A stretch of DNA of 64,000 nt from Yuukianura sp. NJ FZ-2021 (GCA_046563655.1 CM102289.1:5766001-5830000), one strand, 5' to 3'; shown: positions 18,300 through 50,660, counted from the stretch's first letter. Numbers and translations: made by a program. The notes: generated by a model from the sequence alone, not told the origin.

Positions 18300-21200
18300 T
18301 TAAGAGTAGAATGTCAAAACGGACGTTTGATTTCCACGGACGAGCAAGAAAGGCGGCATATCCTTGGTCATCATTTCCAGCCATGACATGTACAGTGGAG
18401 CCGACACTGTTCCGCGTCTGGGAACTGGAAGCGTCCTAAAATTTCAAAATTCAAAATTAAAAAAAAATCAAAATCTATATTTTTATAAATCGCATCAATA
18501 CTCACATCACAACAAAAGTAGATTCCGAGGAATGTTGTTTGAGGAGTTCGTGAAGACGAAGATGTCGATTCGTCTTTTCTCGGAGTGTAACCAGTTCTGC
18601 ATCGGTAATGTTCCGTCCGTCATTTGACTCCTCCCCCTTAAACGGACCAATCATAGCTTCGAATTGCTTTTTAGTCTCCTCCTTGGCCCTCTTCGTTATG
18701 TCCGGTATTACAATGACGTCGCTGTATTCAATTCGGAACTTGGCCAAAAGAGCAGCCATGCTGAAATCAAAAATTCGGATTATCGAATCAACTTCAGGCG
18801 CGAGTGCTTAAAATTTCAAACTATCAAAATAGACTTACTTTCTTTGTTCTCTTCCGAGCTCTTCCTTTCGACTCGTCAGCGTAAAAATGCGGAGTTGACA
18901 TCCCGAAAACTGGGATCTCGTCGTAAGAATGTAGGGAAGCAAAATTGTAAGTCCACCGTCATCCTAAAAATCGACACAAAAACTCAAAGTCTTGACGATC
19001 AAAACGAAGCAGAGAAATGCAAAAACTTACGTATAACCACCAGACGTCAATCGTCGACTTCTTTTGTTTGCGTTGGAATAGTGTAACGTTGGCGAGTATT
19101 TGTCGTGGAAGAACGGATCCTCCAGGTCCAGTGTAAAGTGGTGCACCGGACGCCTTGCGTGTTCGCTTCTTCTTCCTGGATTGATTTTCTGTTTTGTCAC
19201 CATTGGTTGGAAGTCGGGGTAGTTTCGGAGATGACGGAGTACTGCTAGATTCACTGCTGTTTCCATCTAAAAAATATTTTCAATTAGTCAACTCAAAATA
19301 ACTAAAAATACCAGTTCAAAAATTAAGTCAAACAAATCGTCCAGTTTTCAATTGAAAACAAAGCTATAGTTGTCATTTTGAAAATTTTGTAAGCATTTTG
19401 TTCAAATTTCATGCTGTTTGCAGTGATTTAATGAAAAACAAGAAGTGCAGGGTGCAAGAAGAAACGCTGTTTTGTTTCAGCTCACCAATTGGAGAGTAGG
19501 CGGCTAAAAAGATTGCAGAGGCAGATCGTATACTTCGACTTTCGGCTGGGATAGGAAAATTCGGATTTAAAAATTCATAAGGAAGGATAATTTCGGAATT
19601 TTTTTTCAATTAGAATTTAAGGAAACTGAAAATTACCTTGTGACAATTGACCTTCACTTTGATTCCTGGGCATGCCTTTCTCCTTAGGACTTTTGACATC
19701 TAGAAGATGCTCAACTGACTTAGCTTGGTCTTCCTCTTCAATTTGATCCGAGTAGTCAAGTCCTCCAGGAACACGCAGAATTGCCACAGCAAAGTGAATA
19801 TCCAATGCTTCACTAAAGTTAAAAACAAAAGAAATGCAATCAATGCTTTGAAAAACAGAATTCATTTCTTTCTTTCATTTTAAAATCCGTAAAGGTTCTC
19901 CTTACTGCAGCACACTGAAGTAATCATTGAGCTCAATTCCTTTGTTGACATCCGGATTCATCCAGTCAGATTTATAGCCGAGCAGAATTGTATTCGGCTT
20001 GAGCCGCCCAAGTCCAGCCGTTTGCATGATCGAATGACAACCTCTTTCAAATACATCTTCTTCAATTAGAGTATAGAATCCCTTCTTTTTGTGCTTTTGA
20101 AGCCACGAGTAGGCTTGTCGTTGAAGTGCACTTCGAACTTTCTGGTTATGATGTCCCTAAATTGACAAAGAAAAAGTATACAATTTAATTGAAATGAATT
20201 CCGTAACCTGCTAACTTACTTTCAACACTTGAGCACAAAGCATGAGTGACACGTTCTTGATAAGTAAATAGCCAAAGTCAACCAGCGCTGGACGTGCACT
20301 CGGCATGCCACTGAAAATGAGTAGTTGCGGGCGGTAGTTCTTGACATGTTCCTCTACTTGGTTTAGGTCTTGGACAGATTTTAACGCAGTGTTGTACGAC
20401 TGTGCTTGCGTAGACGAGCCCCAGTTGACGTCTGGTCCACGGTAAGAAACGTAGAGATAAAGGAACACACTCACTGCCACAGTGATCAAAGCAGTTATCC
20501 AGGACATGAGGAACATCACTGCACAAACACAGAAAACGTTTGAAAAGCGGGAAAACTTGTGAACTCCCACATTTCAAAATTTTCGAAATTCTTACCCCCA
20601 ATGCATAGAATACATCCGCCCAAGCTCACCCAGGCATTGTAGTACTTAAAAGATGGACGCCATCCCGGGGACTTTGATATCGATGCATGAAAAACTGAGA
20701 AGTTTATGAGACAGTAGGCAGCCAGGAAGAAGTTACTGAGCAGTGGAGCAATGGCGTTCAATTTTGCTGTAAAGTGACATTATGAAACACTTGAAATAAT
20801 GCAAATAGTTTTACCTAAAAAGACAAAGAAAATTGTTCCCAAATTCAAATCTTACCAATGAGAAGACACCCAAGGGAAATTAGGAAAACGAGAATGTAGC
20901 CGCGAACTGGATCATTATTGGCTCCATAACCTTTTTCAAAAAAGTGAATCGCTGGATACAAACGATCTTTGGCCAGTGCCTAAACACAACAAAAAAATTC
21001 TAAAAGTGAAATAAAAATTCAGAGTCATAAATTATGTCATACTATTCTAGACAACAAACCTGTAAGACTCTTGGGGCGCCAACCAATGAGGCAATGGCGG
21101 ATGACAACGTAGCAGCAAAGCAACCTTTGCAAACAGCAAAAACAGAGATAAACCACAAAAAAATCGAATGTAATTTGAATTTACTGAACTTACCGCCATA

Positions 21201-24200
21201 AATCAACGGCCACCAAGCACTAACAAGTGACATGACCTGTGGGTCCTACAAATAAAAAATGAGTCAGAATATGTTAACTTTAATTATTATAAATTACTTT
21301 AACAGTAATTATTTTAACTCCTTACATTCAAAAGGCCGTACTGACAAGCGTTAATTTGTTCATCATTTGAAACAGCGATGCAAGTCGTATGATTCTCCAA
21401 TTCAAAATCCAAAACGTTGCCAGTCGCTTCTCGAACTACCGAAGCGCCCATCTAGAATTCAAAACAAAAATGAGTTACTCCCGCCATTTTTATGAAAATT
21501 TTTGAAATCAGTGTTTTGCACTTACCATGATTCCATAACCAATGTAGCTCAAATATGTAATGGTAATGGCAAGTAGAGTTCCCTTTGGAATGGCCATGGC
21601 GGGATCTTTCAAATCTCCACTCAAGTTGGCGCCAGCTACAATTCCAGTTACGGCGGGAAAAAACACTCCAAAAACAGAAAAGAAATCTTGTTGAGAATTG
21701 TCTCCATCGATTCCCTTGCGATAGTCCGAGTAAAAATTGACTTTAAAAGTTTCCCCTAGAAAAATCAAGGGACAAAAATAACAATTTTTAATTAATCTTA
21801 AGTTAACTCAATTAAAGGTAAACCGAGCACTTAGAACAAGCAAATGGAGCTAAAAGCACTTACAACTGTAACCCACGAACCCCTTAGCTTTCTCCAAGTC
21901 ATCTTCTGGACCAATAAAACTTCCCACAATAAAATCTAATTGTGCAGCTACCAAAACGACCAGAAGCAGCATTTGCGTCTACGGGAAATGACAAAAATTG
22001 AACTTCAAACTTACTATACTTTTAGTGCAAAATTTTACTGGCTTACTCTTGTCACCCAGTCCATCCCAACGAAGGCCAAAATCAGAATCAAAACCAGTAC
22101 ACCTTGTCAAAAACAAAATTCAAAATTTCAAAAATTTATCTTCTTTTGAATGTAAAAACCTTATATAAACACAATTTTTAGTTCCGCTTTGAAACATTCA
22201 AAAGATTTAGTTTCAACTTGGTTGCAAAAAATAAATGTCAAAAAAATTCACACGCAAAATCCCATCAAAAAATGTTCTTTTTTTCCCCTCATAACAATGA
22301 TTCCAAAATGCTGTGCAGTGATAAAAAAAAATGAAACGAAAGAGGGAAAATTTTAGAAATTTCATCAAAACATGTTTTCAAATTTGAACTCATAGCTTTA
22401 CCAACTCCGACGATTCGAATGTCATTTTCTCCTCCATCAATGATCCCGTCAGAACCGTTTACTCTGAGTAAGCTGTTCAGTGACTCGCAGAAGCCAACGA
22501 TATACAATGCTACCGCTATGGAGTTGGCTACCGTAAACATCAAGCCTGTCAAAAAATCGAAATTATCCAGACATAAGTTTCATAAAGTAAACAACTTTCA
22601 CACAGATTTTTAAACTTTCAAATTTTTTTTCAATGCTTTTTTGGCACATTCTGCGAGAAAAAACTTACCAATAGCTGCACCAAATTCAGGTCCCAGTGAC
22701 CGTGAAATCATGTAGTAAATTCCGCCTCCCTTTATCAATCTATCAAAAATTAAATGGCACCTCAACTTTCATACAAAATCGTTCGCTTCACTCCAGCTTA
22801 AGTTCATGTTTTTAGTTTTGTAAAACTCAAATAATTAAATTCATACCCATTCGTGCTAACTGCTGACATGCTAAAAGCCGTTATGTATGTCACAGTATTT
22901 GCTAAAGTAATCAACAGGAACCCTTCCACTGTAAATACCAAACCATAAACAACATTAGTAAAGTTTATAACTGCAGTTCCAACTTTATTTAAAATGTCAA
23001 AGGTCACTTACATATTCCTGCTTGTCCTATTACCCAACTCAGGCGCAGAAACAGCATAACCCCCCATATATTCAACAGACATCGCATCTACAAAAAAATG
23101 GCACAAAAAGTTATGAAAACCTCATAAACCTGAAAACACGCCAATAAAACTAAATCCGAAAATTATTAGTTCCTTACCAGCACGCCCTCCAACCAACCGA
23201 ATTTGATGACTTTTCCTTTCAGAACTGCCGTCTCATCATCTTCTTTCTTTGAACTCTAAAAATAAAAAAATAAATCCGTGTCAACTTAAACAATAGGCAA
23301 TCATCACATTTTCAAAAAAAAATCTTATAGTACTTTAGTCGTTTCTTGAGCTGAACCTAAAGCCACTTCTTTCAAAATTTCAATTTTTACAATTTGATCC
23401 AAATCCACATTTACGATTATGACCTCCCATTCTCAAGTCTTTTCTTTAGGAATATGACCATTTTTGTATAATTTCTTCATAAAAACTGCTCTAAATTTTA
23501 TTTATTAGCCCAAAGCAAGTATTTGGTTTAGTTTTCAGTTTCTTCAAGTGTAACAAGTCCTTAGCGTCTTCAAAAATTTCTTGTTCAAATGGCTTCTCAA
23601 CCGCCATGATTCATTCCATATTTACTCAACGCTGTTAAAAATATCACTAGTCGTAAAATTTCCGAAATTGCAATGCCAAACTCTTTGAAATAATGACTAC
23701 TCCTTCCCAGTTTTTGAAGAAAGAAAATTAGCACGTTCTTCATTTTCCGGTCAATGAATCCGCCAAGTCATAAAATGCATTTTTTTAAACTCTTGAATTT
23801 CAATATTCACATCTCTAAATTCCATTTCCAAAGTTTAAAGCTCAAGTCGGATTCAATTTCAAATTGTGCAACATCAAGATCGATCGACAAGATTCATTTT
23901 AATTGAAATTTTTTCTACAATTGAAAAGTCATTCACCTTGTGATCACAAAAATTGATCAAAATCAAACAATCTTGAATAGTTTAAATTGACCTTGCAAGT
24001 TTTTGACCTTAGCACAGGTTGTTTTTGCATTTTGTAAAAATTTGAGAAGTTATTGGCTCTATTTTTGGATTTCGAATATTACCAAAGGTCATGAATCTTA
24101 CTCAGAAATTAGTGTCAGTGACATTCTGTATTTTACGCCTGTGCAAATAACTTTCCCGGCTCTTCAGACAAGAAGCCATTAGCACCGAGAGTGTTTTGCC

Positions 24201-27200
24201 CAGCGGGACATCCTAGTGTGCAAAAATGAAATTCGAAAAAGTGACTAATGGCGGATGGATTGCTGAAGACACAAATTGCCATCCATCCGCCATTTCCCCC
24301 GGGGGGATCCAAATGACAAAAGGAGTCCATCGCTCATTCTAATTGCCATTATTTGCAGGCAGGAGGAAGCATGAAGATCATCGCAAACAGTCACTCCCCG
24401 CGGACTTTCAAAAAGTTTTTTTTCGAAACATATCACTTTCATCTTCAGCCACCAATTTCCAGTAGCTGACATGCCAGAAGAATGGACCAGAAATAAATGT
24501 CACTGTCACAAATCACGACGACGACGTCTCCACTCCCATTTTATTGGTACAAAAATGTCAACGACGTAACCTCTTGGTCATTTGACCACATTTAAAATTC
24601 AACACCAGCCTAAAAGTGTCACTTTCGTACGTCTTAATGTGTCATCCTCAAAAGTTTCTTTTCATCGACTCAAAAACAAGGCTTAATTATAATTTCAAAT
24701 TAGGTTTCATCTTTACGAAAATAACTCAATTCCAAATTTTTCCACGTCAAAAAGTTCAAAAAAATTAGGAAAGACGTAAATGCCTAACCCTAATTTTTGT
24801 CAACTACTGTCACAAAACCAGCCTTGGAAACATACTTGTCTCCCTGGAAAATGATTAGGAATGTTTCCAAAAATCATCCATCTTACTTTGGTGTCTGAAG
24901 CAATCCACATGCGTCAGCGCCTTGTCAAATTCTAGACCTGCAGTTTCTCATTTTGCAAAATCAGGAGCGATCAGGATCAGCATTCAGCAACATTAAGCAA
25001 AAATGATCACCAAGGAACAATGGGCTTGATTGGACGCTAATCTCCATGGAATATCAAATCATTCTAATGTTCTTTCCCATTGCTAAAAATCAAAATCATC
25101 GCAGCTTCCAAGAACTACAACTTTTTAGAAATGCTGGAAGTTCAACAGAATCGCAAGTGTCACACTTCCGAAAATTAATAGGAAACGGAATTTTCAAAAT
25201 TACAAATTACACATTTTATGAATGGAAGAATGACAATTGGTTCTCTGGCAGAAGCAGCAGCAGCATCCATCTAAATGAAATTAGGCAACAAAGACTTTTA
25301 AGAGCTTTGACCTCAATTTCAATTCCTCTTTGTTACTAAAAACACCGAGCAATTTTCCAATGATGCGTGATGAATTCAAGTGTTGGGTGTTATGAGGATG
25401 CACTTTGCCAGTAGGATGGAAAGTACAAAAAAAGTAGAAAGTATTTTTAAAAAGTTGCTACAAAAAAGTTTCGTAGCAAGAAAACCCTTTCCTCATTTCC
25501 TTAAACGAGCGAGTAATATATTAAACGCAAAGCAATGAATTTTGATGTATGCGGAATAATTCCAAACTAAACATGGGATTTAACAAAAATTTTATAAAAA
25601 AAAAATTAATAATATGGAGAAAAATATAAATATTCAATCTCAATGTCAATGTAAAAGTTCAAGTGCGATTTTGAAAGACTGGCAGAAGATGATCTGCCAC
25701 AGATCGTCTTCATATTGGAATGTCGCCTGTGCGTGTTTTAGCGTGTAATACACGCTGCGTGTTGAAAGCTAAAGTTGATCTCACACAAAGTAGATGACAA
25801 ATTGGCTCTACAATCCTAAATACAGGGACAATTGACAAATGGCATACAGAAAGTCGTTTGGTTGAGGTGAAGGATTTTTTCAAGAATTGAACTTTAAAAA
25901 TACAACAAAAATCTTTGAACGTAAAAATTGCTTCAAATGTCTACATCTCCACCCAGCCCCTTAATTTTAAAGGTTTAAAATGAAACTGGTTTTTTCAAAA
26001 TTTCGTATTTTACAGACGAACTAAAATTCAAGAAGCTCGCAGCGGTGTTCAAAAGCCTTCTGGATATCAGAAACCGGCTTCAATAAAATACAAAATTGAT
26101 CCCATTGTTCTTGTTCATGAAAATTGTTCATTGCATCTTTCACTTAAAGTTCATTTATCTTCCTTCGTATTGGATAAATTGGAAACATGCATGTTGAAAG
26201 ATTTTCTTTGCCACGTTTACACGCCTCTCAATTTAATTTATAACAACTAACCGGTTAAGCTCCTCAATTAAATCTATCCATCATTTCATCAAATTGCAAT
26301 CTAAAATTTTTCTATTCAAAATTCAAAAATTCCGATCAAAAATGAATTAAACCGGTAAAAAGCTTAGCTGAATATTAAGTTGTACATTGAAGGCGCGTCT
26401 CACACTATGAACATGAGAAATTTTTTGGAACAAAAACTATAATTTTTGGAGAAAAAACGAGAGGTTTCTGGAAATTAAGTTTTTTTTTCGGCAAAGAAAA
26501 ATTACCGTAGATTTAAAAATAGATTCAGAACCGCATCTTCAGCCATAGTCAGGAAAAGATTGTTCACGCCTTCCGCCCTTCCCATCATCCACCGCCGCCA
26601 GACAAGAAATGCATTTCTGCGTTCGTTACGGTTCCTTAGTAATTTCTACGTTCGGAACATGCAATTTACTATGAACTCCAAATGAAACTTGAAGTCGAAG
26701 CTTTTCATTCTTTTGGACTTGTGCCAGAAACAAGAGGATAGGCCTTTGCCTGATATGTTTCTCCGAACGATGATAAACATTTGGTAGTAAAAAGTAAATT
26801 CATTGAAAATCTAAAAATTGAACTTGAAAAGAACATTCAAGAAATAAAATGACCCCAACCGCATATCCGGTGAGCTTCCTCCATTCGTTTTGCTTAAAAA
26901 AAATTAACAATGAACTTGAGAGCAAAAAATTCGCGGTTTGCGACGGCGGTTAGTACTTGCATAAAGTGGTTATGCCTTCTAAATTTAGCGTTACTGTCAC
27001 TGCCATGCGATGTGGGAATATGAAATTGATCAAAGATGATAAAAAAAAACTAACTTAACCGGTCCGGTCATTCCAGAAATTTTTGGTTAGAGGAAGGCAG
27101 CTTGTCAAAATCGTTCCATACGCTGAACATTTCAATATCAAAGTGGGGTCAGTGCGGAAACCATTTACAGAAACTGCCTTAATTCCAACCATAAAACTGG

Positions 27201-28228
27201 ATAGAACAGGCACATTGAAATTGACAATGGGACAGGGACTATAAAAGTACTATAGAAACAGCAGACCTTAGTCATTTTGGCTTTATTACATAACCGTTGA
27301 GACCATGACTAAGGACCACGGCGACGACGGTTTCAAAAGATGAATATCCTTGTCCTAGACAATACCTCATGTTCCACGGTGATACAAGACCATTGTCAAA
27401 CATAAGCAAAAAAACAGTGGAAAGGTACAGGGCGGGAAGACATGTTTCTGCCCAACATCTGTCATGTCTACTCTGCTCCCCTGCTTACACATTTTTTACC
27501 AGTTTCCAGTGAAATGTTCAACATGTTAAAAAATGGATGCTAAAACATGTTAAAATTATGGCCGTTGCTCCTTGGGAGAGTGAACGAACGCTTGCATGCT
27601 CAAAGTAAAAAAAACCTAAACAGTTTACCGAAGCAATACGAACTTAACGCAAAAACACAAAAGAAAAGACTAGTTACAGTAAAGTCCCTCATTCCGCAAC
27701 ACACTTTTCTTCTTGACGAAAACCGTAAAACTCAAATTCCTTTTTGAGACAATAAACATAGCCTTTCGAAAAAATGAATCGGTGACTTGAGTTTACCCTA
27801 TAACGTAATCGGAGACTTTACGGTATCAAACGGTGGACTTTTCCCTGTTGCATAATGAAGGGGTTTTACTGTATCAAACTTTTACTTACCTTCTCGTGGA
27901 AAGTTGCATTATGCAGTTCATCTAGGGTCGGACGAGGCACGGCATGGATTGACATCAAATCCCGGTAGTTGTCATACTTTGGCAGAGCTTCACGAGTCAA
28001 CTGGCCAAGACTCTTCAAGTTCCAAGTATATTGATGCTGTGTCATCCCTTCGTAGTTTTCAGATGGATCTTCTTCAGAAATAGCTGCTCCACCAGCCACC
28101 ATTTCCGGCCCTACTTTGGCCACTTGAAACCGACTTTTCTCAATATCGTTCATCTCTTGATCTTCCGCGGGATATCGATATGTCTCTCCCGAACCTTTGC
28201 TGATACTGACCCTACCCTTGCTCGGCAT
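18300..28228 (-). CDS. SLC12 Na-K-2Cl cotransporter, paralogue A (canonical NKCC / Ncc69-like)
   Basis: ATG 28228 (MPSKGRVS), RFQV motif, TREALP...[98 protein letters not shown], and [16 protein letters not shown] (18300-18302). Intron of about 4.6 kb after the first coding exon. Confidence 0.95.
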
Positions 28229-36000: not shown

Positions 36001-39000
36001 CATTTTTTAAAAACAAATTGCAGGTCAAAAGTAGCCGAATTTTGAAAAACTTGCGAGGGAACATTTCCAACCTGTAGTCGAGTTTTGGAATTTAAAAAAT
36101 ACAGTCATATTCTGTATGCCAAAAGAAAATTTTCCGCACTAGTTTCAGTCGCCAATGCCAAGAAAAATTACCCAACCTGGGCTCGAACCCGTGGTCCCAC
36201 TCCAGAAGAATGAGAACATTTTTTTGGGTCGAATTTTTCGACAGACAAAGTGTTTAGGATATTATATCATACGATTTACACGTTTGCTGTTGAATAATTC
36301 GACATAAAAAATATTTAAATTATTTAAAACATTGTCTGGGTCTTCGTATAAAGTGAGGGTTCGAGCACAGGTCGGGGTAATTTTTTTTGGCAATGGCAAC
36401 TGAAACTACTGCGGAATTTGTTTTTCAATATATAGACAACGATTGTATTTTTTAAATTCCAAAACTCAACGACAGGTTGGGAATGTTCCCTCGTTAGTAA
36501 AAGGCCAAAGGTTGGGGAAAAAATAACTTTGGAACGGAAACTCACCGATAGACGCCGCCACTTACACCTTCGTCACTTTCACGCGGGGATGAAGTTGTCG
36601 TTCTCGAGTCAAAAACAAGTTTATTCCCACGCCGAGTAGCTGCGGACAAATTGTTGACCTGCGTGATGCCACCGTTTCGATCATTAGCAGCCTCTGGATC
36701 TGTCGGGTCAACTTCCAGAATATTTTCAAATGTGTTGATAGTGCGGGGTGAATGGGCCATCGGACGAATTAAATTTCGCGGTAAATTTTCTTCTAGACCT
36801 CCAACAATATGGGAGTTGTCCAGAGCCCCCTTTGTACGTAAAATGGCAATGCCCAAATGGTTATCCAGAGCCTGGCTGGAAAGTCAAAGGTCAAGTTTTA
36901 ATCAGAAAAGACGATCAACTTACAAACAAACCGAAAAGTAAACTTTTAAATGCTTAAATTTTCTTCACCGCTGAAAAGTAGATTTGAAAGAAAAGCAATT
37001 TGGAGCTTAAAAGGTCCAAAGTTGAACAAAAGTTTGTAAATTGAAAAGAGCACAACATGAATTGACTTTTGGAAATTTAGTTTAAGTGTGGCGTGACACT
37101 CCCAGAAGAAAAAGTGTTGAAGTGTGTAGTTCTTCTTTCAAAAACTTTTTCCCATGTCCAAAATGTCAAAGTTTTTCGCATACCCAAACTTTTTTGTGTA
37201 AAGTGAAAGTTGACAGAGACTGAAATTGTGAAAGTAGTTGGAAAGTGGGAATGACAAGTCGCTGAAACGGCACCTCAGAAGTTTTGTTTTGAAAATGGCG
37301 CCAAAAGAAAAAGAAATTGAAAACCCCACTTTCCTTCAGATCATAAAATAAATAACACTCCCTTACGATAACAAGCAAAAATTCAATAACTTACTGCAGG
37401 ATGTTAAAGTATTCTTTAACTTCTTCTCTGTCTTCACAAACTTGCCAGTTAGCTTTGTAGCCCATTAAAAGAATGTTTGGCGCCAATTTTCCAATTCCGG
37501 TTGACTGAATGAGCGCTTGACAACCTTCATCAAATTTGCATCCGTCAACCATCACGTAGAAGGCTTTGACTTTCTGTAGGTGTAACCAGTCGTAGCCATT
37601 TTGAAGCACAACTCTTCGAATTCTCGCTGGAACTTGGTCCTCTTGAATATTTGCACAAATTAGGAGCGAATTCTAAAACAACATCCAAAATTTGGTTTTG
37701 CAAGTGAAAGTCTTAATTTGAAACTGCTTGGTATAATTTTTTTTTTGTTTCTTCCGCTCTAAAACATTTCTTGACCTGTTAATTTGCTAATTATGACTGA
37801 TTAGATATTGAAATAACGTTAATTTAACTTACCTTCTTTGTAATTAAAGAAGCGAGATCAATGAGAGCTGGACGTGAAGACGGAAATCCACTGAGACACA
37901 GGATTTGTGGACGGTAGTTTTTGACATGTTCGTTTTGAACGGCCAGGCGTTGCAACGCTGTCAAAGCATCTTGGTACGTCTGCGCTTGGGTAGTTGTTCC
38001 CCAATTTAAATCTAAGTAAAACCCAAAAAAATGAGGCTCACTTTTCAATAACTTTCGTTAAGAAGCCTAGTAAAGTGGAAAAAATCTTACCGGGATTTCG
38101 GTAAACAACGATGGAGTAACAAACAAAAACACAGAAAATGGCAACTAGAGCGCAAACCCACGACATCAGGAACTAAATAGTCAAAAAATGACGTTAATTT
38201 TCGAGAGTGCAATTTTAATTGTTTTCGTGTACTCACCATCACCACAACACAAACAACAGCTCCTGCTAAGCTCAGCCAAGTATTATAATACTACAACAAA
38301 AGTTTTAAAAAAATTCACAGATTTTCTTTTGTGTTTTTACGAAGTTTTGAAGGAGTTGACTAATTACCTTGAAAGTAGGTCTCCAGCCAATTGGCCTCAC
38401 AAGACTAGCGTGAAATGTACAGTAGTTCAATAGTGCGTACTAAAAGCAATCAAACTTTTTTAATTAGTTTGGAAAAATTACGTGTCTTAAATGAAAATCT
38501 TACCGCTGCCATGAACATGGAAGAGATGAGCATAGCTATAGCGTTGAGATCAGCGATGAGAATGAAGATGAGTGCTATGAGGAAGCCAAGTGCATACGAC
38601 CAGTAGGGGTCATCGCTCTTCTTGTACCCGATTCCAAACCTATTATTTTATATAAATTATTTATTACAATTTATTTTATAATATTCATAATTGATCTTAC
38701 CGGGTCAAATAAGGGTACACTTCATCCTTACAAAGCGCTTGAAATGTCTTCGGACCAGACACCATGCATGACAAGGCAGATGATAACGTTGCAGCAAAGC
38801 ATCCCGCGTAAATAATTGGACCTGCGTTATTATTATAATTAAATTTTAATGTACAATGTTTATTATTAGTTAAATTATAATAGTTAATTTATAATAATTT
38901 ATAATCATTAATTTATAAAGTACAAAAACTCCAAGACTTACCAAATGCTGACATCAGTTGCATAACCTTAATCAAAACAGAAAAAAATTAAGCTGGTGCT

Positions 39001-42000
39001 TCCCTTTGCTATGAATGCAAATTTTTTTAAGCTTTACTTGGTAGTCATTGTTGAGTCCCCATTTGCAGCTGTAGTTGGCGTAAACACAGTCTGTGTAAGT
39101 TCCATTTTCATATTCCGATACAATTCCACTTGCTTCACGGACTTCACCTAAAATTTAAACAAATTAATTCTAAGCTGTGACGTTGGTTTTGAAAAAAAAA
39201 ACAGTTTTATAAGGATTGAATCTGCAGAAGTTGTGTCTGACATACCTGCTCCTGCCAGTAGAGCAAACACGGCGTACGAGCCAGACGTAATGAAAATGGC
39301 CAATAGCGTTCCAGTGGGAATTGCAAAGCCAGGATCCTATATAAAAGTTCAAGTTTTTATTATTTTCAAAATTTTGACACCAATTTTAAAGAAAAAGTGC
39401 TAACCTTCAAATCTCCAGAAAGTGACGCTCCAGCCTGAATTCCGGCAACGGAAGGGAAGAAAATTGAGAAAATAGAAAAGAAATCCTGTTCCATTCCTTC
39501 ACTAAATCGGTAGCCAGGAGTTAAGTTTTCAACGAAAACTTTGGCTAATACAAATCAGGATAAATTAGTTAAACCAAAAAATTTAATGAAAATTTATAAT
39601 GTTATATAATTATTGTTTGCTAATTTACCACTTATTCCTTCAAATCCTTTTGCTTTTTGCAAATCCGACTGTGGCCCCATACAAGCTCCAACAACAAAAT
39701 CCAACATGGCCACTAATAGAATCACGAGCAATCCAACTTGAGCCTAAAAAATTTTTGAAAAAAATTATGAAGGTTTTAAGCTAAAAACTGCTAAAAAAGT
39801 ATCAAAACAAACAGTATATAAAACCACATAAGCCAAAAAAAGCCTAAAGCAATTTTCAATAAATCGTATAATAATTTCAGTAAAAACATTTTTTTTTTCA
39901 TTCTGAAGTTATTTTGTTCTGTCGTTTAATTTTAGTTGCAGCGCATTGTTTGGTGAGTAATTTTTAGAAGTTCTAAGAACATAGTGACAGCCATTGCTGA
40001 CTCAAAATAACCCTTAAAATTGCTTTTAACTGTTTCAGTAGAGTTAATTACTGTAAGTTAGTTAAAATTGGCAAACCTAATTTTAAGTGAACCTAAGTTT
40101 TGACTCACCTTAGCTTCCCATTCCATTCCAATTATGATAATTGACTGAAGAGCAATGAGGGCTATGACGCTAATAATTCTGTTGTCGTTGACTCCGCCGT
40201 CAACAATACTTAAACCTTCTGCTTTCAAAAGTGAAATCAACGATTCTGAAAATCCGACAATATTCAGCGCAGCCATTCCTGCGTTTGCAAAACTGAAAAC
40301 CACACCCACTGCGCCACCAAATTCCGGACCAAGACTTCGCCTAAAACCCCAAGAAAACAATTTCTTTTAAACAGTGATTCAAGTTTTTAGAGAAAATTCT
40401 TGTTGTTCGAACATGCAACTTACGAAATCATGTAGTAGAGTCCACCACCTTTCATTTCTCTGTGGAAAAGAAAATGAGATGGTGAATTTTATGGAAATTT
40501 TGGGAATTTTTACTAATTTTGGATAATTTTTAAAATTTGAACCAATTACCCGTTAGTAGACATTGCCGACATGCTTAGAGTGGTAACGCAAGTAATTGCA
40601 GTTGAAATAACAATAATAATTAAAGAGTGCGCTGTGGAAATAAAAGTTTTAAATTTTTTATTTAGTAATTTTGAAAACTATTTTTAACAAAAATATAATG
40701 CAAACTTCGCACTTACCAATTCCAGCCTGTCCGACCATCCAAGACAGTCGAAGAAATAGCATGACTCCCCTGTCGTAAGAAAAAGTTTTTTGAAAACTTT
40801 GTACAAATTTTTGAAAACTGTCAGATTTTCAAAAAAAAAAAGAAAAAAAGAAAACCTTACCAAATATTTAACAGACAGCGAACCAAGCATCCTTCAATCC
40901 ACCCAAACTTTACAGCCCCGCCAGCTCCATCGCCATTTTCAATGTTTGGACTCTAATTTTGTTCAAAACGAAGATAATTAACACTAGTTGATTTGACCTA
41001 AAAAAATGTTGACCTCTGACCTCTCTCCGTCGAATGTCTCCACCTTCATGAAGGTCGTCCAGCGTTGGACGCTGAGCCGCTTGAAACGACATGAGATTTC
41101 TGTAGTTTTCCATTTTAGGCAAAGCTTCTTGGGTGTACTGCTGAAGGCTGAGGCCATAGTGAGTATGGTCACCACCCGTAAAGTCTGCGACTTCCGGAAG
41201 AAAAACGGAACTCTTCCGACGCACATTCGGATTCGCACCGGTACAAGCCGAAATTTTCCGAACAGCCGTCATTGTGCACCGTGTCGTTTCGGCCCAAGTG
41301 CCAGTCGTTACTACTGTACAGACGCCGCCGTTGGGTGTCGTAGGCGACCGTTCTTCTGGAATTGCGTTTTCCAATCCACGCAGACTTCCAGGTCTCGTGG
41401 TTCGGAGAACAATGGAATCGATTCGGTCGACTTGGAATCTGCTTCCAGAAGGCTTCTGAATCTAGAATAACGTTAGGACAATTCAAAAAAAAATTTGAAA
41501 ACGTGAGAAAACTGAAATCGCGAAAAGTGAAAATATTGTTGACTGATGAGATGCAACTGAAACAGCGACTGTTGGCCTGCGAGTAGCTTTGGGAGTGTCG
41601 AGTCTAATGAGACTGTTTAAGTCAACAGAAGTGAAAGGTGATTAAATAGACGCTAAACTGTAGATGAGGCAGCCACCCTACGTTTAACGCTAACGTTAAC
41701 ATTAGGTTTACATTAAGTTTAGGTTAGGCAGAAAGTCTCAATCGCACACCAGTTCCAGACGTAAGTTGTTTCTTTGGAGCGAAGTGTCATGAATTGCAAA
41801 ATACTTGGAAAAAGGCTTCCCCCACAAACTTATTACTCACAATGACATCACAACTTGATCTCCATCTGCTAACCGCAATAACCTTTGCAATTTTAACACA
41901 TTTTTGATAATTTACAGAATTCAGCATAACTTAAAAGACAAAAAAACAAGTTTATCGATAACAATTTTTGATTCCAATGAAGTACGAAATGAATTCAGCA

Positions 42001-44420: not shown

Positions 44421-47400
44421 TTAAGAATAAAACGTAAGAACGGATGTTTGGTTTCCGCGAACGAGCAGAAATGGTGGCATATCTTTCGTCAGGCACTCCA
44501 GCCATGCCAAGTAGAGTGGAGCCGAAACACCGCCGCGACGTGGGATAGGCTGAAATTCAAAAACAAAAATGAATTCAGTTTTGGCGCCAATTTTCTAAAT
44601 CAAATTTTTACTTCTGGTCGTACCATGGTCATTACAACAAGATTGGCCATTCGGGAATGATCCAACAGAAGTTCACGAAGTCGTAAGTGGCGATTAGTCT
44701 TTTCCCGCAAACTTTTTAGTTCAGCGTCCTCCACTTCCATTTCTAAAATGAGAAAAGTTGGTACTTGAAACTTTTTTAAAACAAAAAAGTGATTTGTGCT
44801 CAAGTTTTGTAGTCACCAGGATCTTTTCCGTCGTTTCCGCTTCTGTATTCCTTGATGAGCTCATCAAAAAATTTCCAGCTGACATCCGTTGCCTTCTTGG
44901 TCACATCCGAAATGATAATCAGGTCGGAATAAGAAATTCGAAATTTTGACAAAAGACTAGCTAGTCTGAAAACAAAAATTTTCATAATGTAGAAATAATT
45001 TTTTATCGTGTTCCAACATTTTCTAAATTGATTTACCCTGCTTGTTCCACTTCCAAATTGTTTTGTTTACTTGCGAGAGCAAAGACGCGAATTTTGCTTC
45101 CTTGAAAAATTGACCTTGTAGAAATTATGTATGGAAGCAACATAGTCAACCCTCCATCGTCGTATCTTCACAAATTAAAATGTGGATTAAAATGTGATAT
45201 TTAAAATACTTGGTTAAAATAATTATCCAATTCAATGAAACTTACAGCCACCAAATGTCAATTGTTGACTTCCTTTGTTTCGTTTGGAACTGAGTCAAGT
45301 TGTTTATAACGGATTTCGGAAGGATATCTCCGTTCGGACTCCTAGAAGCATTTCAAAGACAACAATAAATTTTATACTCAAATTTCAAAATTTCAAAGTT
45401 TCCAAATTTCAAAAATTTAAACTTGAAGATATTACCTTAGGTTTTGTACTAAATCCTTTTGGCGTTTTTTCATTTTTGAATCTCCTTCTGGCTCCATTGT
45501 GAAACCGCCATTTCCATGTCCAAGATCTGGCGTCAAATGGGAAGACGTACTAAACCCACCTAGAAAAGTACACAAACTTTAAATTTGTTAGCGCCTAAAT
45601 TCTGGCGCTAAAATTTGAAATAAACAAATTTTACTGGCGTCGGATTCGACACGAGAAAGCGTGAGGATGTCCACCACCTCTTGGCTGTCGACGTTGATGA
45701 GGTCAGAGTAATCAAGACCCTCTCGCAATCGTAACATTGCAAATCCCAGGTGAGTGTCCAGGACGTCGCTAAAATGTTTAAAATTTGTTTAAAATATTCA
45801 AAAACTTTTCAAACAGGTTCAAGAAAATTGCTGTGTTTGCTTACTGAATTACACGGAAGTAGGCTTTTAGTTCTTCCGAGTCACATGTTTTCCAATCCGA
45901 TTTAAATCCCATCATCACCTACATCAAAAATAAGTCTAAAATTGTGCTTTTTTTTTGTTTTTATATAATTTTTTTAGTTTTAGTTTTCCATGAACAAAAC
46001 TTCGACAAAAAAAAAGCTACGAACGTACAATGTTTGGCTTCATTTTGCCTAAACCAGAAGCTTGCATCAAACATCGCGCGCCTTCTTCAAAATCGACGTC
46101 GTCCACCAAGCTGTAGAAAGCTTTGACTCTGTGGTTTTGAAACCAGGAGTTGGCTTTTGCATTCAAATACTCCCGTACTTTATAAGATTGTCTATCCTAA
46201 AAAACAAGTTTCCAAATTGAAATCAACAACTTTTTTGAAATATTTGGAAACTTACTTGAATAATGTGTCCGCAGATGACCATTGAAATGTTTTTGGTAAT
46301 CAAGTAAGCAAAGTCAATTAACGTAGGGCGTGAAGAGGGACGCCCGCTAAGCAGCAGAATTTGCGGTTGGTAGTTTTTGATGTGATCTTGTGTGTTAGAT
46401 AAAGCTTGAACGGAACTCAATGCACTTTTGAAATTTTGTGCCTGTGCTGATGATCCCCAGTTGACATCTGCAAAACCACATTAAACTGAATTTAATTTCT
46501 GTGTAATTTCATTGTTAAATTTTTACTTGAACGTACCTGGCTTAATGTAAACCAAAATTAGGAATAGACATGCCAGAATGCCAAATGTAATGAGAGCAGT
46601 GACCCATGACATGAGGAACATAATGGCCACACAAAGCACAAATCCAACGAAACTACTGTATTTGCTGTAATACTAAAATTCAAAATGAAAATTTGCAAAT
46701 TTTTATAGTATCGCCATCAAAAAATTTGAAAATATTTTTTTTTCACAAAGTTTACCCGAAACTCTGGACGCCATCCAAGCGGTTTCACCAAAGCTGCATG
46801 GAAAGTACAAAAGTTCACCATAGCGTACTACACAAATCAAAAAGTTAAACCAATTTTTTTTAAAAACCAGTTTAAAAATTTTGCAAAAAAAAAAAGGAGC
46901 TCCAAAAATTTACCGCAGCCATGTAGAAGTTGGATATTAATGGTGCGATGGCATTGAGCTCAGCTAAACAGTTAAAAGGATCAAAATGAAAATTGAAGCG
47001 GAAATGTTGCATAATCAATTAACCTAAAGCATTTAAGATACCCTATTTTAACCTAACTTACTTAAATTAGTCCTTACCAATCAGAATAAAAGCCAGTGCG
47101 ATGATGAATGCAATAATGTAGGCATAAAACGGATCATTGTTTTTCCGAAATCCTCTTCCGAGTGGACCAATGAACGGATACAAATTGTCTTTGCAAAGAG
47201 CTTGAAAAATTTTTGGTGCAGAAACGAGACATGCCAGTGCAGAGGACAAAGTTGCAGCAAAACAACCCGCATAAATAATTGGACCAAAAATGGCCATGAG
47301 TTCCATGATCTGAAAAATCAGAGATTTAGTTAGCCTTTGAAATCTTCCAATACGGTTCAAGTGCACACCCACCTGAAAACTGTTGTGCAATCCCCATTCG

Positions 47401-50400
47401 CAACTGCTCTTTCCAGTAGTGTAGTTGACTGTACAGTTATTGCCAAATTCCCAAGTTTCTACAATTTCTTCTGTCAAATTTCCAACTGGACCCATTGCAT
47501 CTCGGATGCATTCAGATCCTGCCAGAAGTGCAAAAATAATGTAGGAGGCAGTGGTAGTCAAAATGGCAAGAAGAGTTCCTTTTGGAATGGCCGCAGAAGG
47601 ATCCTGTAGTTGAAAAATGAAAATTTTATTACGAGTTTCTAAATTTTTGTGACATTCTTGACCTTCAAATCTCCAGAAATGTTGGCACCAGCAGTGATTC
47701 CAGTTGCAGCGGGAAAAAAGATGGCGAAGATTGTAAAGAATCCATGTTGCATTCCGTCTTGAACCCGAAAGTTTGGAGAAAAGTTGTCAGCAAATGCGGA
47801 TGCTTCAAAATTTTGACACAAATAAAATAAAATTTAGAATTCATACTAATACATATTCAAAACTAAAGCATCATATTCACTTACAATTAAATCCAATGTA
47901 GCCTCTAGAAATTTCATCTGAATCAAGTGGTCCAATAAAAGCTCCAATAAGAAAATCCGCAATTGCAACGAGCAAAATTATCAGCAACACAATTTGAGCC
48001 TAGTTTGAATTTTCTATTTTCAATTTTTTGGCACATTCTACCAAATTTAGTAGTTTCAGTTTCATAATAGCAGAGTATTCGGTGCATTTAGTCAATTGAA
48101 TTATATCAACTGCCATTGCATCAACTGAATTAGGTCAAATGGAAGTGTATTAACCATCAAATGTGTCTGTTAATAATTTTATCCACGAACCTTGCCAAAC
48201 CTAACCTAAGCTAAATTAGCAATTATGCACGTTCACACAATTAAAAAGTTGACAAAACTTGGTTGGTGCGATGGCAGTTGATACAATTCAATCGGTACAA
48301 TGGCGTCCTCCCACGCATACGTATTGAGTTTTGAATACAAAATGTTTGATTGTATTCTCACCTTCGACTCCCATTCAGTTCCGATAATAATGATGGACTT
48401 TGGAAAGAAAATTTCAAAATAAATTTCAAATTTTCAAATTTGTAAGTCCGTTTTTTATATAAGAAACTGTCCTACCTGCATCACAATTAACGCAATTGTT
48501 CCAACAATTCTGATGTCATTCTGTGCATTGTCAATAATTTTGACCTAAAACAAAGCAAAAAAATATCAGCAAATGTTTGCACATTAAGTAAAGTAAGAAT
48601 TTTGAAAATACAAATTGACTGTGAAATTACTTGTAATGTTTTCAACAGATCGTTCAGAGACTCAGCAAATCCAACTGTGTGCATTGCAACTGCCGTTGCC
48701 TAATTCAGAAAGGAATTGCAAAATCATTAGTATTTTCTCAATGTTCACATTTTAAAGATTTCAAAAAATTCAAAAATTTGTACATTTGCAAAAGAGAAGA
48801 TGGCTCCCACTGCCCCTCCAAATTCTGGACCCAGCGCTCTAGAATTTAAATTTTTAATTTTAAAGTCATGCAGTTCTTCATGCTTTTGAAGCATTGTTGA
48901 ACTGGAAACATAAAAAGGATAACTTTTATATTTCTCTCACCAATTCTGTTTAACATTCAACAACTTTTTATTGAAATTGATGATTGAAATTAAAATTAAT
49001 TCTATTAGCATGTTATCCGATAGACTCAATCTAGACTCATAAAAATGCTGCCAGACACATGACATGCGTCATGCGTTTGTTTACGAAAATTCACATGAAT
49101 TCAAACAGTTGCTGAGCGTGAGGTCATCCGTTTTCGAACCAAAAATAAAAACAATTGAACCAAAAGATGCCGAGTTTGCCAAGGGTGTTTCAATTGTACA
49201 CTTTGTTAATTTGTACTTTCATTGACCTAGGGTAACTCTGCGTGTGTAAAAACAAGTGGAAAAGCTTCTCGATTTTTAGAAAAGTCAAAAATCGCATGAG
49301 TGTTACCTTGAAATCATGTAGTAAATTCCTCCTCCCTTGATTTGTCTAAATAATGAATATAAAGGTAGGTTTAGATATAGAAATGTGTGAGTTGTGCAAA
49401 ATGTTCTAAATTTTGAATTTTTACCCATTGGTGCTAATTGCACTCATGCTAAGAGCAGTCAAAGTGGTTACAGTTGCAGAGAGACAAATGATTACAATGG
49501 CCAATCCTGTTAGCACAATCAGTAGCTAATATTTTTAATTTCAAAATGTTTTTTAGTTGTAATAGTGCTAATTTGGGACAATTTTTACCAATTCCAGCTT
49601 GAGCTACAACCCAGCTCAATCGCAAAAACAACATCACACCCCTTGAGAAATAGAGCAAAATTAGTGAACCTGATTTTCCAAAAAATATCACACCTTTTCT
49701 TTCATATTTAAACTAAATCAGTGCATATTTTGTTACCAAATGTTGAGCAAGCATCGCACCAACACCCCTTCGATCCATCCGAATTTAACTGAAGTTCCAG
49801 CAGCCTCCGGTTGTGGTTCAGGTTTCTATTTCGAAAACGAACCATTTACGTAAACATGAACCATGTCCAACGACTTAGAGTAAACGCCATAATCATACAT
49901 AAATTCAGGTAGAGTGGCAAATTTGAAATTCAGTTTGCGTTTCATCGAAAACATAAAGAAATTAAAGTGCAACGTGAACAACGTAAAATACGAATAAAAG
50001 GTTAAACCAAATCCGGAAAAAATTTTCTGGTCATAAAACGTTTTCGTGGAAGATGGTTTTGAAAAAGCACATCAAATACAAATAACCTTAAAAATTCAAA
50101 TTCTGTCACTTGTTTACACATGAGTTAACTAACAGCATAATTAAATTTTGGTATCGATTTTTTCAAAAAAAACATATGATCACTTGTTTCTTTACTCTGG
50201 CTAAGTTCTCGGACTTTACCTTGGCATACATGGCTTCGCTGCGAAGTTCATCCATCGTTGGTCTTGCACAGACCTCGTGGCTTTGCAAATTCTTGTAATG
50301 GTCCATTTTTGGCAACGCTTCCCGCGTGTAGTAAGCCAAACTTTGTCCATACACCGTCTGAGCTTGCGCACCGCCATCATCCTCTTCATAGTCAAATTCC

Positions 50401-50660
50401 TTTGGCAAACTCACAGACTTTTTGCGTCCTCCTCCCAGGCCCTGTGCAATGGACGTTCTGCGTTGCATCTGCGGATGCGCCGTGGGTTGCTGTGCACAAA
50501 TCACATTAGTCAACTCCTGTTCTTCTGGAATTGAACTACTCTGAAGACCCAACCCACCACCAAAGTTCAGTAAAAGTTGGCCCGAAGAAATACGATTTAC
50601 CCGAAACCGGTTAGAGTCCAGAGTCGGAGGTGGAGGATTCGAACTAGGGATGTCTGTCAT
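44421..50660 (-). CDS. SLC12 Na-dependent cation-chloride cotransporter, paralogue C (NCC-like His at the K+ site)
   Basis: First in-frame ATG 50660 (MTDIPSS), [87 protein letters not shown], and [16 protein letters not shown] (44421-44423). Confidence 0.93.
48096..48291. mobile_element. Small MITE-like element: 30-bp inverted repeats around a CCTAA-repeat core, in an intron of paralogue C
   Basis: ttgaattatatcaactgccattgcatcaac (48096-48125) versus the reverse complement of 48262-48291, ttgaattgtatcaactgccatcgcaccaac (3 mismatches). Central aacctaacctaag near 48198-48210. Confidence 0.55.

What the first reader, a model, noticed from the sequence alone, without database searches (positions are those of the whole stretch)
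18300..50660. Tandem trio of cation-chloride cotransporters with three different K+-site residues (Tyr / Asn / His)
Seen: all three paralogues keep TM1 LNIWGVM and the TM8 Na+-site AATLSS, but the TM3 residue differs: ALYIVGF in A (Tyr codon 22502-22504), ALNIVGF in B (Asn, 40262-40264) and AMHTVGF in C (His, 48679-48681). TM6 also differs: PAVTGIV, PSVAGIQ, PAATGIT. Known: this Tyr (human NKCC1 Y383) and the TM6 Thr (T499) coordinate K+, and K+-independent NCC has His at the Tyr position. Inference: one locus encodes a Na-K-2Cl, a Na-Cl and an atypical Na transporter, i.e. a locally evolved ion-uptake toolkit.
Basis: partly seen in the sequence, partly recalled or inferred. Interest (0 to 1): 0.85.

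Follow-up and report, generated by a model that had tools for sequence, protein, structure and literature searches.

The report
Three old salt-transporter genes in a row
A springtail-like genome carries three intact sodium-coupled chloride-transporter genes side by side that differ at the residue which normally holds potassium, and each belongs to an old, separately conserved subfamily rather than being a recent local invention.

Summary
Three intact minus-strand SLC12 Na+-coupled cation-chloride cotransporter genes lie at 18303-28228 (A, 21 exons), 33043-41461 (B, at least 24 exons, initiator exon not found) and 44424-50660 (C, 26 exons). The Tyr, Asn and His codons sit where stated, and each aligns to human NKCC1 Y383 / NCC H234.

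The paralogues are 48-52% identical and each has orthologues in other springtails and beyond, so the array is ancient rather than locally evolved.
- A belongs to a pancrustacean clade with the signature Tyr/PAVTGIV. It is not the Ncc69/NKCC1 orthologue; that fourth gene is absent from the window.
- B is the springtail member of the insect NaCCC2 (Ncc83/aeCCC2) type (N383, S497, Q502), but it keeps R294 and S614 and adds T499A.
- C belongs to a His-bearing clade shared with damselfly and mayfly. This clade is sister to NaCCC2 and unrelated to vertebrate NCC.

Tyr-to-His arose at least five times in my 84-sequence tree. The transport modes (NKCC-like, Na+ pathway, NCC-like) are inferred from residues only. 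Expression could not be tested.

The parts
18303..28228 (-). Gene A. 21 coding exons, 1068 aa, ATG at 28228, TAA at 18300-18302. Na+-coupled CCC of the pancrustacean 'Tyr / PAVTGIV / SSAIAS' clade.
   Evidence: Spliced alignment to Allacma fusca P0121 gives a full-length model with GT-AG at all 20 introns. The core exons are the same with P0125 and P0130 as references. Exon list. 79% identical to P0121 over 932 columns.
22502..22504 (-). A: Tyr codon at the human NKCC1 Y383 position (TM3 ALYIVGF, aa 230).
21637..21657 (-). A: TM6 PAVTGIV (P496-L502). Thr499 is kept; A498V and L502V.
33043..41461 (-). Gene B. At least 24 coding exons, at least 1061 aa, TAA at 33040-33042. The springtail member of the NaCCC2 (Ncc83/aeCCC2) type. 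The exon holding RFQV opens at a strong acceptor (ttattctag|) at 41461. The exon with the initiator Met lies further upstream and was not identified. Exon borders are uncertain at 41014-41021/40924-40952 and in the linker at 36546-36631/35989-35997.
   Evidence: Spliced alignments to P0064 and P0036 agree for the 17 exons from 40769 to 37395 and the last 4, from 34984 to 33043. N-terminus examined. 71% identical to Orchesella cincta P0064 over 925 columns.
40262..40264 (-). B: Asn codon at the Y383 position (TM3 ALNIVGF).
39435..39455 (-). B: TM6 PSVAGIQ (A497S, A498V, T499A, L502Q).
   Evidence: Compared with dipteran PSVTG[IV]Q.
44424..50660 (-). Gene C. 26 coding exons, 1080 aa, ATG at 50660, TAA at 44421-44423. 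His-type Na+-coupled CCC, in a clade shared with Orchesella, Ischnura and Cloeon.
   Evidence: Identical 26-exon model with P0001 and P0004 as references, all GT-AG. 80% identical to P0001 over 925 columns.
48679..48681 (-). C: His codon at the Y383 / NCC H234 position (TM3 AMHTVGF, aa 260).
47693..47713 (-). C: TM6 PAATGIT (Thr499 kept, L502T).
28121..28132 (-). A: RFQV, the SPAK/OSR1-docking type motif RFx[V/I] in the N-terminus. The equivalents are B RFQV at 41429-41440 and C RFRV at 50598-50609.
   Evidence: Motif definition from Duong 2022, section 3.4.

Best explanation
The window, from a springtail-like hexapod, holds an ancient same-strand array of three functional paralogues of the Na+-coupled branch of the SLC12 family. 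Each represents a different, separately conserved subfamily.

Shown:
- A is a member of a pancrustacean clade with an intact K+ site (N298, I299, Y383, P496, T499), Na+ site and Cl- sites.
- B groups with insect NaCCC2 (Ncc83/aeCCC2) and has lost two K+ ligands (Y383N, T499A). It has Q at 502 but keeps R294 and S614.
- C belongs to a hexapod clade with His at 383. This clade is sister to the NaCCC2 type and is not related to vertebrate NCC.
- All three keep an RFx[V/I] docking motif and the T-x-EALPK-x-x-Y stretch in the N-terminus.

Inferred:
- A works as a K+-dependent, bumetanide-type Na-K-2Cl cotransporter.
- B works as a K+-independent Na+ pathway like aeCCC2/Ncc83, possibly less derived and still Cl--coupled.
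- C works as a K+-independent Na-Cl cotransporter, with the His replacing K+ in the central pocket as proposed for NCC.
- All three are switched by WNK-SPAK/Fray phosphorylation.
- The B and C lineages arose by tandem duplication before springtails and insects split. A separated earlier.
For: Gene integrity: A has 21 exons, B 24 and C 26. Models are full length and have no stop or frameshift, and all introns are GT-AG.

Family: Pfam AA_permease and SLC12 domains on single exons. Single exons hit solved NKCC1/NCC chains at E = 1e-10 to 1e-20, better than KCCs.

Site mapping.

Clades:
- FastTree of 230 rows: A clade, 32 rows, support 1.0; N+H clade, 29 rows, 0.998.
- IQ-TREE of 84 rows I selected, 940 columns, with the five trait columns removed: A clade 100/100; N+H clade 100/99; His clade 83/98; Asn clade 74/51.
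- V498 and Q502 are shared by B and the insect NaCCC2 sequences, and these columns were left out of the tree.

Age: pairwise identity is 48.4-52.3%. Six intron positions are shared by all three, six more by B and C only, three by A and C only, and one by A and B only.

Orthologue signatures are fixed in Allacma, Orchesella and Folsomia. The C orthologue P0001 (1082 aa) comes from a 3529-base contig, which leaves no room for introns and so is presumably a transcript.

Function of the relatives: aeCCC2/Ncc83 give Na+-dependent currents without Rb+ uptake (PMC9012228, abstract and sections 1, 3.4 and 4.2). Y383 and T499 coordinate K+, and NCC has His at that position (PMC9713717 passages; PMC9645730 passages).
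Against: - No transport or expression data exist for any of the three.
- B's initiator exon was not found.
- The grouping of B with insect NaCCC2 has only moderate support (74/51). B lacks three of the six dipteran NaCCC2 marks (R294P, S614T, S618N).
- C is sister to the electrogenic NaCCC2 type, so it could share that behaviour rather than NCC-like cotransport. C also has L502T next to the Cl2 site and lacks the A497S seen in NCC.
- In human NCC, H234Y abolished transport but also destabilised the protein (PMC9645730). The residue alone therefore does not prove ion selectivity.
- No member of the A clade was found to be functionally characterised in the papers I read.
- The trees have no KCC outgroup and are rooted at the midpoint only.
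Confidence: 0.75

Rival explanations
1. The trio is a recent, lineage-specific tandem radiation that evolved its three K+-site variants locally.
For: Same strand and close spacing: B and C are 3 kb apart, and A and B 4.8 kb apart.
Against: Pairwise identity is only 48-52%. Each gene is 71-80% identical to an orthologue in another springtail genus and sits in its own clade with insects or crustaceans. Another gene lies between A and B.
Confidence: 0.03
2. C is not NCC-like. Like its sister clade NaCCC2, it is a Cl--independent, electrogenic Na+ pathway, K+ coupling having been lost once in the common ancestor of the Asn and His clades.
For: The His and Asn clades form one clade at 100/99. Both lack Tyr383. 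aeCCC2/Ncc83 behave as Na+-dependent conductances (PMC9012228).
Against: C keeps R294, A497, T499 and S613/S614, and lacks Q502. The damselfly and mayfly members keep L502 and have PSATGIL, which is identical to vertebrate NCC's TM6.
Confidence: 0.2
3. The residue at 383 does not set ion selectivity here: all three are ordinary Na-K-2Cl cotransporters, or B and C are non-transporting regulators.
For: No functional data. CCC function is hard to predict from sequence (PMC9012228, introduction). In my survey of 147 anonymous cluster representatives, 126 aligned at this position, and 32 of those carry N or H, so the position is tolerant.
Against: Y383F/S impair human NKCC1 (PMC9713717 passage). 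aeCCC2 with N383 takes up Li+ but not Rb+ (PMC9012228, introduction). B has also lost T499.
Confidence: 0.12
4. One or more of the genes, B most likely, is an unexpressed pseudogene.
For: No initiator Met was found for B. No RNA evidence was obtainable.
Against: B has at least 1061 codons over 24 exons without a stop or frameshift and with canonical splice sites. The reading frame opens at a strong acceptor, which is typical of a short upstream first coding exon. The signature residues are identical to or close to those of Orchesella and Folsomia.
Confidence: 0.05

Closest known systems
Insect NaCCC2: Drosophila Ncc83 (CG31547), Aedes aeCCC2/aeCCC3
   Same: B shares Y383N, A497S, V498 and L502Q, and falls in the same clade (marks from PMC9012228, section 3.4). 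The predicted loss of K+ transport is shared.
   Different: B keeps R294 (dipteran P), S614 (dipteran T) and has C rather than N at 618. It has T499A, which the mosquito and Diorhabda sequences lack. Orchesella and Folsomia B-types have A at 497. Electrogenic behaviour is untested.
Vertebrate Na-Cl cotransporter NCC (SLC12A3; solved structures such as 8fht, 7y6i)
   Same: C has His at the H234 position within an identical AMHTVGFAE stretch. It has conserved Na+-site residues and T499.
   Different: C is not an orthologue. It nests inside a hexapod clade, sister to NaCCC2, whereas vertebrate NCC groups with vertebrate NKCC1/2. C has A, not S, at 497, and T, not L, at 502. Thiazide sensitivity and K+ independence are untested.
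Canonical NKCC: human NKCC1 (SLC12A2), Drosophila Ncc69, Aedes aeNKCC1
   Same: A keeps the K+ ligands (N298, I299, Y383, P496, T499), the Na+ site and the TM10 Tyr.
   Different: A belongs to a separate clade (PAVTGIV, SSAIAS). In my sample this clade occurs in crustaceans, Collembola, Palaeoptera, Polyneoptera, Hemiptera and a louse, but not in Holometabola (32 of 230 rows). The springtail Ncc69-type gene is P0020/P0036, which has no counterpart in the window.
Branchiopod, prawn and unionid His-bearing N(K)CC paralogues (Daphnia P0054 and others, Macrobrachium P0105, Sinanodonta/Potamilus P0258/P0259)
   Same: They have the same Tyr-to-His change at position 383 in an otherwise NKCC-like protein.
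   Different: The origins are independent: five changes to or from His on the 84-row tree. Joining the Daphnia and hexapod His groups is rejected (AU p = 0.0049).

Membership tests
SLC12 Na+-coupled cation-chloride cotransporters (N(K)CC branch) | APC-type permease domain plus SLC12 C-terminal domain | tested here: met
   Pfam on single exons: PF00324 for A (E = 9e-12) and C (E = 8e-23); PF03522 for B (E = 4e-31) and weakly for A. Database orthologues carry PF00324 plus PF03522.
SLC12 Na+-coupled cation-chloride cotransporters (N(K)CC branch) | Closer to NKCC/NCC than to KCC | tested here: met
   PDB phmmer with single exons: NKCC1/NCC E = 1e-17 to 1e-20, against KCC1-4 E = 1e-4 to 1e-10. For the TM6 exons of B and C, only NKCC1/NCC pass E = 0.001.
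SLC12 Na+-coupled cation-chloride cotransporters (N(K)CC branch) | Na+-site residues of TM1 and TM8 (L297, W300, A610, S613, S614) | tested here: met
   LNIWGVM and AATLSS are present once in each of A, B and C. The residue list is taken from the PMC9012228 discussion and otherwise recalled.
SLC12 Na+-coupled cation-chloride cotransporters (N(K)CC branch) | N-terminal SPAK/OSR1 docking motif RFx[V/I] and phospho-acceptor stretch | tested here: met
   RFQV (A), RFQV (B) and RFRV (C). The T-[RQ]-EALPK-x-x-Y stretch is aligned among the three. Alignment of B's N-terminus to a human NKCC1 N-terminal chain is not significant on its own (E = 0.81).
Canonical NKCC (NKCC1 / Ncc69) | K+ ligands Tyr383 and Thr499 | tested here: met
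   Met for A only (Y, T). B has N and A; C has H and T.
Canonical NKCC (NKCC1 / Ncc69) | Orthology with the Ncc69/aeNKCC1 clade | tested here: not met
   None of A, B or C falls in the Tyr/PAATGIL hexapod clade that holds Ncc69-named sequences and Orchesella P0020/P0036.
Canonical NKCC (NKCC1 / Ncc69) | Na+-, K+- and Cl--dependent, bumetanide-sensitive electroneutral uptake | not testable with these tools
   Needs flux assays.
Insect NaCCC2 (Ncc83 / aeCCC2 / aeCCC3) | Conserved substitutions Y383N, A497S and L502Q | tested here: met
   B has N, S and Q. Marks from PMC9012228, section 3.4.
Insect NaCCC2 (Ncc83 / aeCCC2 / aeCCC3) | Conserved substitutions R294P, S614T and S618N | tested here: not met
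   B has R, S and C. Diorhabda and the mosquitoes have P, T and N.
Insect NaCCC2 (Ncc83 / aeCCC2 / aeCCC3) | Clade membership | tested here: inconclusive
   B plus insect Asn sequences: FastTree 0.947, IQ-TREE 74/51. The wider Asn+His clade is 100/99.
Insect NaCCC2 (Ncc83 / aeCCC2 / aeCCC3) | Na+-dependent current, no Rb+ uptake | not testable with these tools
   Needs oocyte electrophysiology.
Vertebrate NCC (SLC12A3) | His at the TM3 position of NKCC Tyr383 (H234) | tested here: met
   [10 protein letters not shown] is identical to the human NCC chains at 229-237.
Vertebrate NCC (SLC12A3) | Orthology with vertebrate SLC12A3 | tested here: not met
   C lies within the hexapod clade. Bird NCC groups with vertebrate NKCC1/2 (99*).
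Vertebrate NCC (SLC12A3) | K+-independent, thiazide-sensitive Na-Cl cotransport | not testable with these tools
   Needs flux assays with thiazides.

The most novel reading that the evidence does not exclude
C and its damselfly and mayfly relatives are a hexapod-born, K+-independent Na-Cl cotransporter that arose independently of vertebrate NCC by the same Tyr-to-His change. This change would be a recurrent route to NaCl uptake from dilute water. There are at least five origins in my tree, and the invertebrate ones all lie in freshwater or wet-soil animals: Daphnia, a freshwater prawn, unionid mussels, and springtails plus insects with aquatic larvae (habitats recalled). In springtails it would be the unidentified carrier behind the Na+ and Cl- absorption measured at the collophore vesicles. 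The collembolan B gene would be a less derived NaCCC2, showing the order in which that odd Na+ pathway lost its K+ and Cl- sites.
Probability: 0.3. Interest if true: 0.75.

Novelty: new variant of a known kind. Interest (0 to 1): 0.5.

Why it matters
Arthropod ion-uptake models lack a molecular NCC.
- A 2022 review assigns the NCC-type uptake model to fish, "relative to insects and crustaceans" (PMC9644288, passages read).
- A 2025 shrimp SLC12 study states that there is no genomic evidence for SLC12A3 in crustaceans. It leaves convergence with NCC as an open hypothesis, and the word 'histidine' does not occur in its text (PMC12428425, passages).
- Thiazide-sensitive Na+ uptake has been reported in Daphnia neonates (PMC6114146, passage).

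A conserved His-type clade in springtails, damselflies and mayflies, together with independent His paralogues in Daphnia and a prawn, names concrete candidate genes and makes the question testable in oocytes.

The springtail B gene carries only half of the dipteran NaCCC2 marks, so it offers a natural intermediate for dissecting how NaCCC2 became K+- and Cl--independent. For the window itself, the practical outcome is a corrected annotation: three different subfamilies, none of them the Ncc69 orthologue.

Tried and rejected
- A first heuristic that refined junctions between ungapped tblastn hits failed where hits ran through stop codons or lay within one exon. I replaced it with a dynamic-programming spliced aligner.
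- B's first coding exon: spliced alignment of the Orchesella and Folsomia N-termini to 40800-44350 gave only implausible short exons. The initiator stays unidentified.
- RNA evidence: no RNA holder was listed for 44400-50700.
- No whole genome is held for the window, so I could not ask whether the Ncc69-type gene lies nearby.
- N-terminal exons of C and B against PDB gave no significant NKCC hit.
- A search for duplicated or mutually exclusive exons, or for a fourth paralogue, in the window found only 5 hits outside the exons. All had E > 1.8.
- Literature searches for a described arthropod His-type CCC or a springtail CCC found none. These are full-text word searches of open-access papers only. 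Piermarini 2017 and Hartmann 2014 were not read.
- Structure prediction was not run, because the tool returns no coordinates from which the pocket could be judged.

Full report
**What is there.** The window is AT-rich eukaryotic DNA (GC 0.33-0.47). All three genes lie on the minus strand.

A stop-to-stop ORF list showed many short exons. I therefore fetched full-length relatives with single-exon queries. I then wrote a protein-to-genome spliced aligner with exact split-codon scoring, after a simpler junction heuristic failed.

The resulting gene models are:
- **Gene A:** 21 exons, 28228-18303, 1068 aa.
- **Gene C:** 26 exons, 50660-44424, 1080 aa.
- **Gene B:** 24 exons from about 41443 to 33043, at least 1061 aa.

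A and C start with ATG. All three end in ...VLTFYS followed by TAA, and every intron is GT-AG. Different reference proteins gave the same core exons.

Two regions of B remain uncertain: the border of its second exon and two linker exons. B's reading frame opens exactly at a strong acceptor (ttattctag|) at 41461. The initiator Met must therefore lie in an upstream exon, which I could not find.

No further exon copies or paralogue fragments exist in the window.

**Are the residues at the K+ site?** Yes.
- phmmer of the single TM3 exons against all PDB chains aligns A's Tyr and B's Asn with Y383 of human NKCC1 in native numbering.
- C's AMHTVGFAE matches the identical stretch of human NCC, with His at 234. 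This short exon is not significant on its own, but the whole-protein alignment agrees.
- The TM6 motifs align without gaps to FFPAATGIL / FFPSATGIL.

This gives the following readings for positions P496-L502:

| Gene | TM6 motif | Changes relative to NKCC1 |
|---|---|---|
| A | PAVTGIV | A498V, L502V |
| B | PSVAGIQ | A497S, A498V, T499A, L502Q |
| C | PAATGIT | L502T |

TM1 LNIWGVM, TM8 AATLSS and the TM10 Tyr are kept in all three.

The literature supports the site assignment. Y383 and T499 coordinate K+ in human NKCC1, and NCC has a conserved His at that position (PMC9713717, passages; PMC9645730, passages).

**What the three genes are.** The best database relatives are springtail proteins from Allacma, Orchesella and Folsomia. 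The organism is therefore springtail-like.

I built two trees:
- A FastTree of 230 rows. The input was 231 database proteins of 800-1399 aa plus my 3 models, 234 rows in all, of which 4 were dropped for under 75% coverage.
- An IQ-TREE (LG+G4) with 1000 ultrafast bootstraps and SH-aLRT. It used 84 rows that I chose for taxon spread and 940 columns, with positions 383, 497, 498, 499 and 502 removed.

Both trees agree.

*Gene A.* A lies with Allacma, Orchesella and Folsomia proteins inside a clade of 32 of the 230 rows (support 1.0; 100/100 in the 84-row tree). Every member carries Tyr, all but two PAVTGIV (two crab-group sequences have TAVTGIV), and SSAIAS. The clade includes an ostracod, an amphipod, decapods, mayflies, a damselfly, orthopterans, a phasmid, termites, hemipterans and a louse. 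It has no holometabolan member in this sample.

*Genes B and C.* B (with Folsomia P0213 and O. cincta P0064) and C (with Orchesella dallaii P0004 and the unnamed P0001) fall together in one clade with two other groups (0.998; 100/99):
- the mosquito and Diorhabda Asn-type proteins;
- the Ischnura and Cloeon His-type proteins.

Inside this clade the His group (83/98) and the Asn group (74/51) are each monophyletic.

*The Ncc69 type.* Sequences named Ncc69, and the Tyr/PAATGIL proteins of Orchesella (P0020, P0036), form a different group. None of the window's genes is the Ncc69/NKCC1 orthologue.

**B against the published NaCCC2 signature.** Duong et al. 2022 (PMC9012228; abstract and sections 1, 3.3, 3.4 and 4.2 read) list the residues that separate dipteran NaCCC2 (Ncc83, aeCCC2, aeCCC3) from NKCC1. 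These are Y383N, A497S, L502Q, R294P, S614T and N at 618.
- B has N383, S497 and Q502.
- B keeps R294 and S614, and has C at 618.
- The beetle Diorhabda already has the P, T and N states.
- All three springtail B-types have Ala at 499, where the insect sequences keep Thr.

B thus looks like a less derived NaCCC2 that has lost a second K+ ligand. In the same paper, aeCCC2 and Ncc83 produce Na+-dependent currents. aeCCC2 takes up Li+ but not Rb+, independently of Cl- and of bumetanide or thiazide.

**C and the His residue.** C is not related to vertebrate NCC, which groups with vertebrate NKCC1/2.

On the 84-row tree His needs five changes and Asn two. The His-bearing groups are:
- bird NCC;
- unionid mussels (H/PSATGIL);
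- Macrobrachium (H/PACTGIM);
- a Daphnia paralogue clade (H/PAATGIL);
- the hexapod clade.

Forcing the Daphnia and hexapod His groups together costs 47.6 log-likelihood units (AU p = 0.0049). I named this group after seeing the tree.

A scan of 1.84 billion cluster representatives with P0004 returned 1671 proteins at E <= 1e-30. Of the 150 best listed, I examined the 147 that were new. Of these, 126 aligned at position 383: 88 had Tyr, 19 Asn, 13 His and 6 another residue. The position is therefore variable across the family, and His and Asn recur.

**Age and origin of the array.**
- Pairwise identities are A-B 48.4%, A-C 49.3% and B-C 52.3%.
- Six intron positions are shared by all three genes, six more by B and C only, three by A and C only, and one by A and B only. 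This fits the tree, in which B and C are closest.
- The database tables list O. cincta P0020, P0064 and P0125 with the same longest-contig length (132,959 bases). The same holds for O. dallaii P0004 and P0036 (2,057,389), Allacma P0121 and P0126 (82,046), and Folsomia P0130 and P0213 (28,534,321). This suggests conserved linkage. I could not fetch those contigs, so it is only a hint.

The array is old: the duplications predate the split of springtails and insects. 'Locally evolved' is not supported.

The array is also not uninterrupted. A plus-strand NAD(P)HX-dehydratase gene lies between A and B (Pfam PF01256).

**Function (inferred).**
- All three keep an RFx[V/I] motif and a conserved T-x-EALPK-x-x-Y stretch in the N-terminus. 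Regulation by WNK-SPAK/Fray is therefore likely.
- A has all K+, Na+ and Cl- ligands, so it most likely acts as a Na-K-2Cl cotransporter.
- B most likely acts as a K+-independent Na+ pathway. Because it retains R294 and S614, it may still be Cl--coupled.
- C is predicted to be K+-independent. NCC-like electroneutral Na-Cl cotransport is the most likely mode. The sister relation to NaCCC2 keeps an electrogenic Na+ pathway as a serious rival.

Springtail collophore vesicles absorb Na+ and Cl- by unidentified carriers (preprint 10.1101/534164, abstract only). C is a candidate for this role, which is pure inference.

Expression could not be tested. The C orthologue P0001 (1082 aa) comes from a 3529-base contig, which suggests a transcript.

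**Comparison with print.**
- The Asn type is known (PMC9012228; PMC6468792, one passage, which calls the clade insect-specific).
- I found no paper describing a hexapod His-type clade, the PAVTGIV clade, or springtail CCCs (searches; open-access full text only).
- PMC9644288 (passages) treats the NCC model as a fish feature.
- PMC12428425 (passages) says there is no genomic evidence for SLC12A3 in crustaceans and does not mention histidine.
- PMC6114146 (passage) reports thiazide-sensitive uptake in Daphnia neonates.

**Verdict.** The trio is three ancient subfamilies kept in a row. The His-type gene is the part worth a bench test.

Noticed in passing
window 7909-13071 (+), probably extending to about 17000: Exons of a multi-domain voltage-gated cation-channel gene. 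Three separate ORF pieces each hit Pfam Ion_trans (E = 1e-17 to 1e-19). A 308-aa Ser/Gly/Pro-rich ORF at 9204-10130 has no Pfam hit.
   Followed up: partly
window 30415-31502 (+): An NAD(P)HX-dehydratase (Carb_kinase, PF01256) gene on the opposite strand, lying between CCC genes A and B.
   Followed up: partly
window 53940-58260 (-): A protein-tyrosine-phosphatase exon (PF00102, E = 3e-8) lies downstream of an 828-aa open exon rich in Ser, Thr, Pro and His/Asp repeats that has no Pfam match. This is possibly a receptor-type phosphatase with a mucin-like ectodomain. It coincides with the GC peak at 56-58 kb.
   Followed up: partly
database proteins P0258, P0259, P0021, P0008, P0017, P0260, P0261: In three of the five His origins (vertebrate NCC, unionid mussels, and damselfly plus mayfly), His383 is accompanied by A497S, giving the identical TM6 PSATGIL. 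The springtail, Daphnia and Macrobrachium His types keep Ala497.
   Followed up: no
database proteins P0146, P0085, P0148, P0238, P0243: Asn at position 383 also occurs outside the NaCCC2 clade: in a planthopper (Lycorma) and an unnamed relative, in an Agrilus beetle paralogue, and in two tardigrades.
   Followed up: no
database proteins P0178, P0194, P0195, P0198 (psyllids and unnamed): Very divergent psyllid members of the hemipteran Ncc69-type clade have changed TM1, TM6 and TM8 site motifs (KNLLHLWGII, F or C at 383, PAIIGFL, TCA). This suggests loss of the usual ion sites.
   Followed up: no
genes A, B and C, last exon: All three genes end with the same ...[12 protein letters not shown], followed by TAAAAA.
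   Followed up: no
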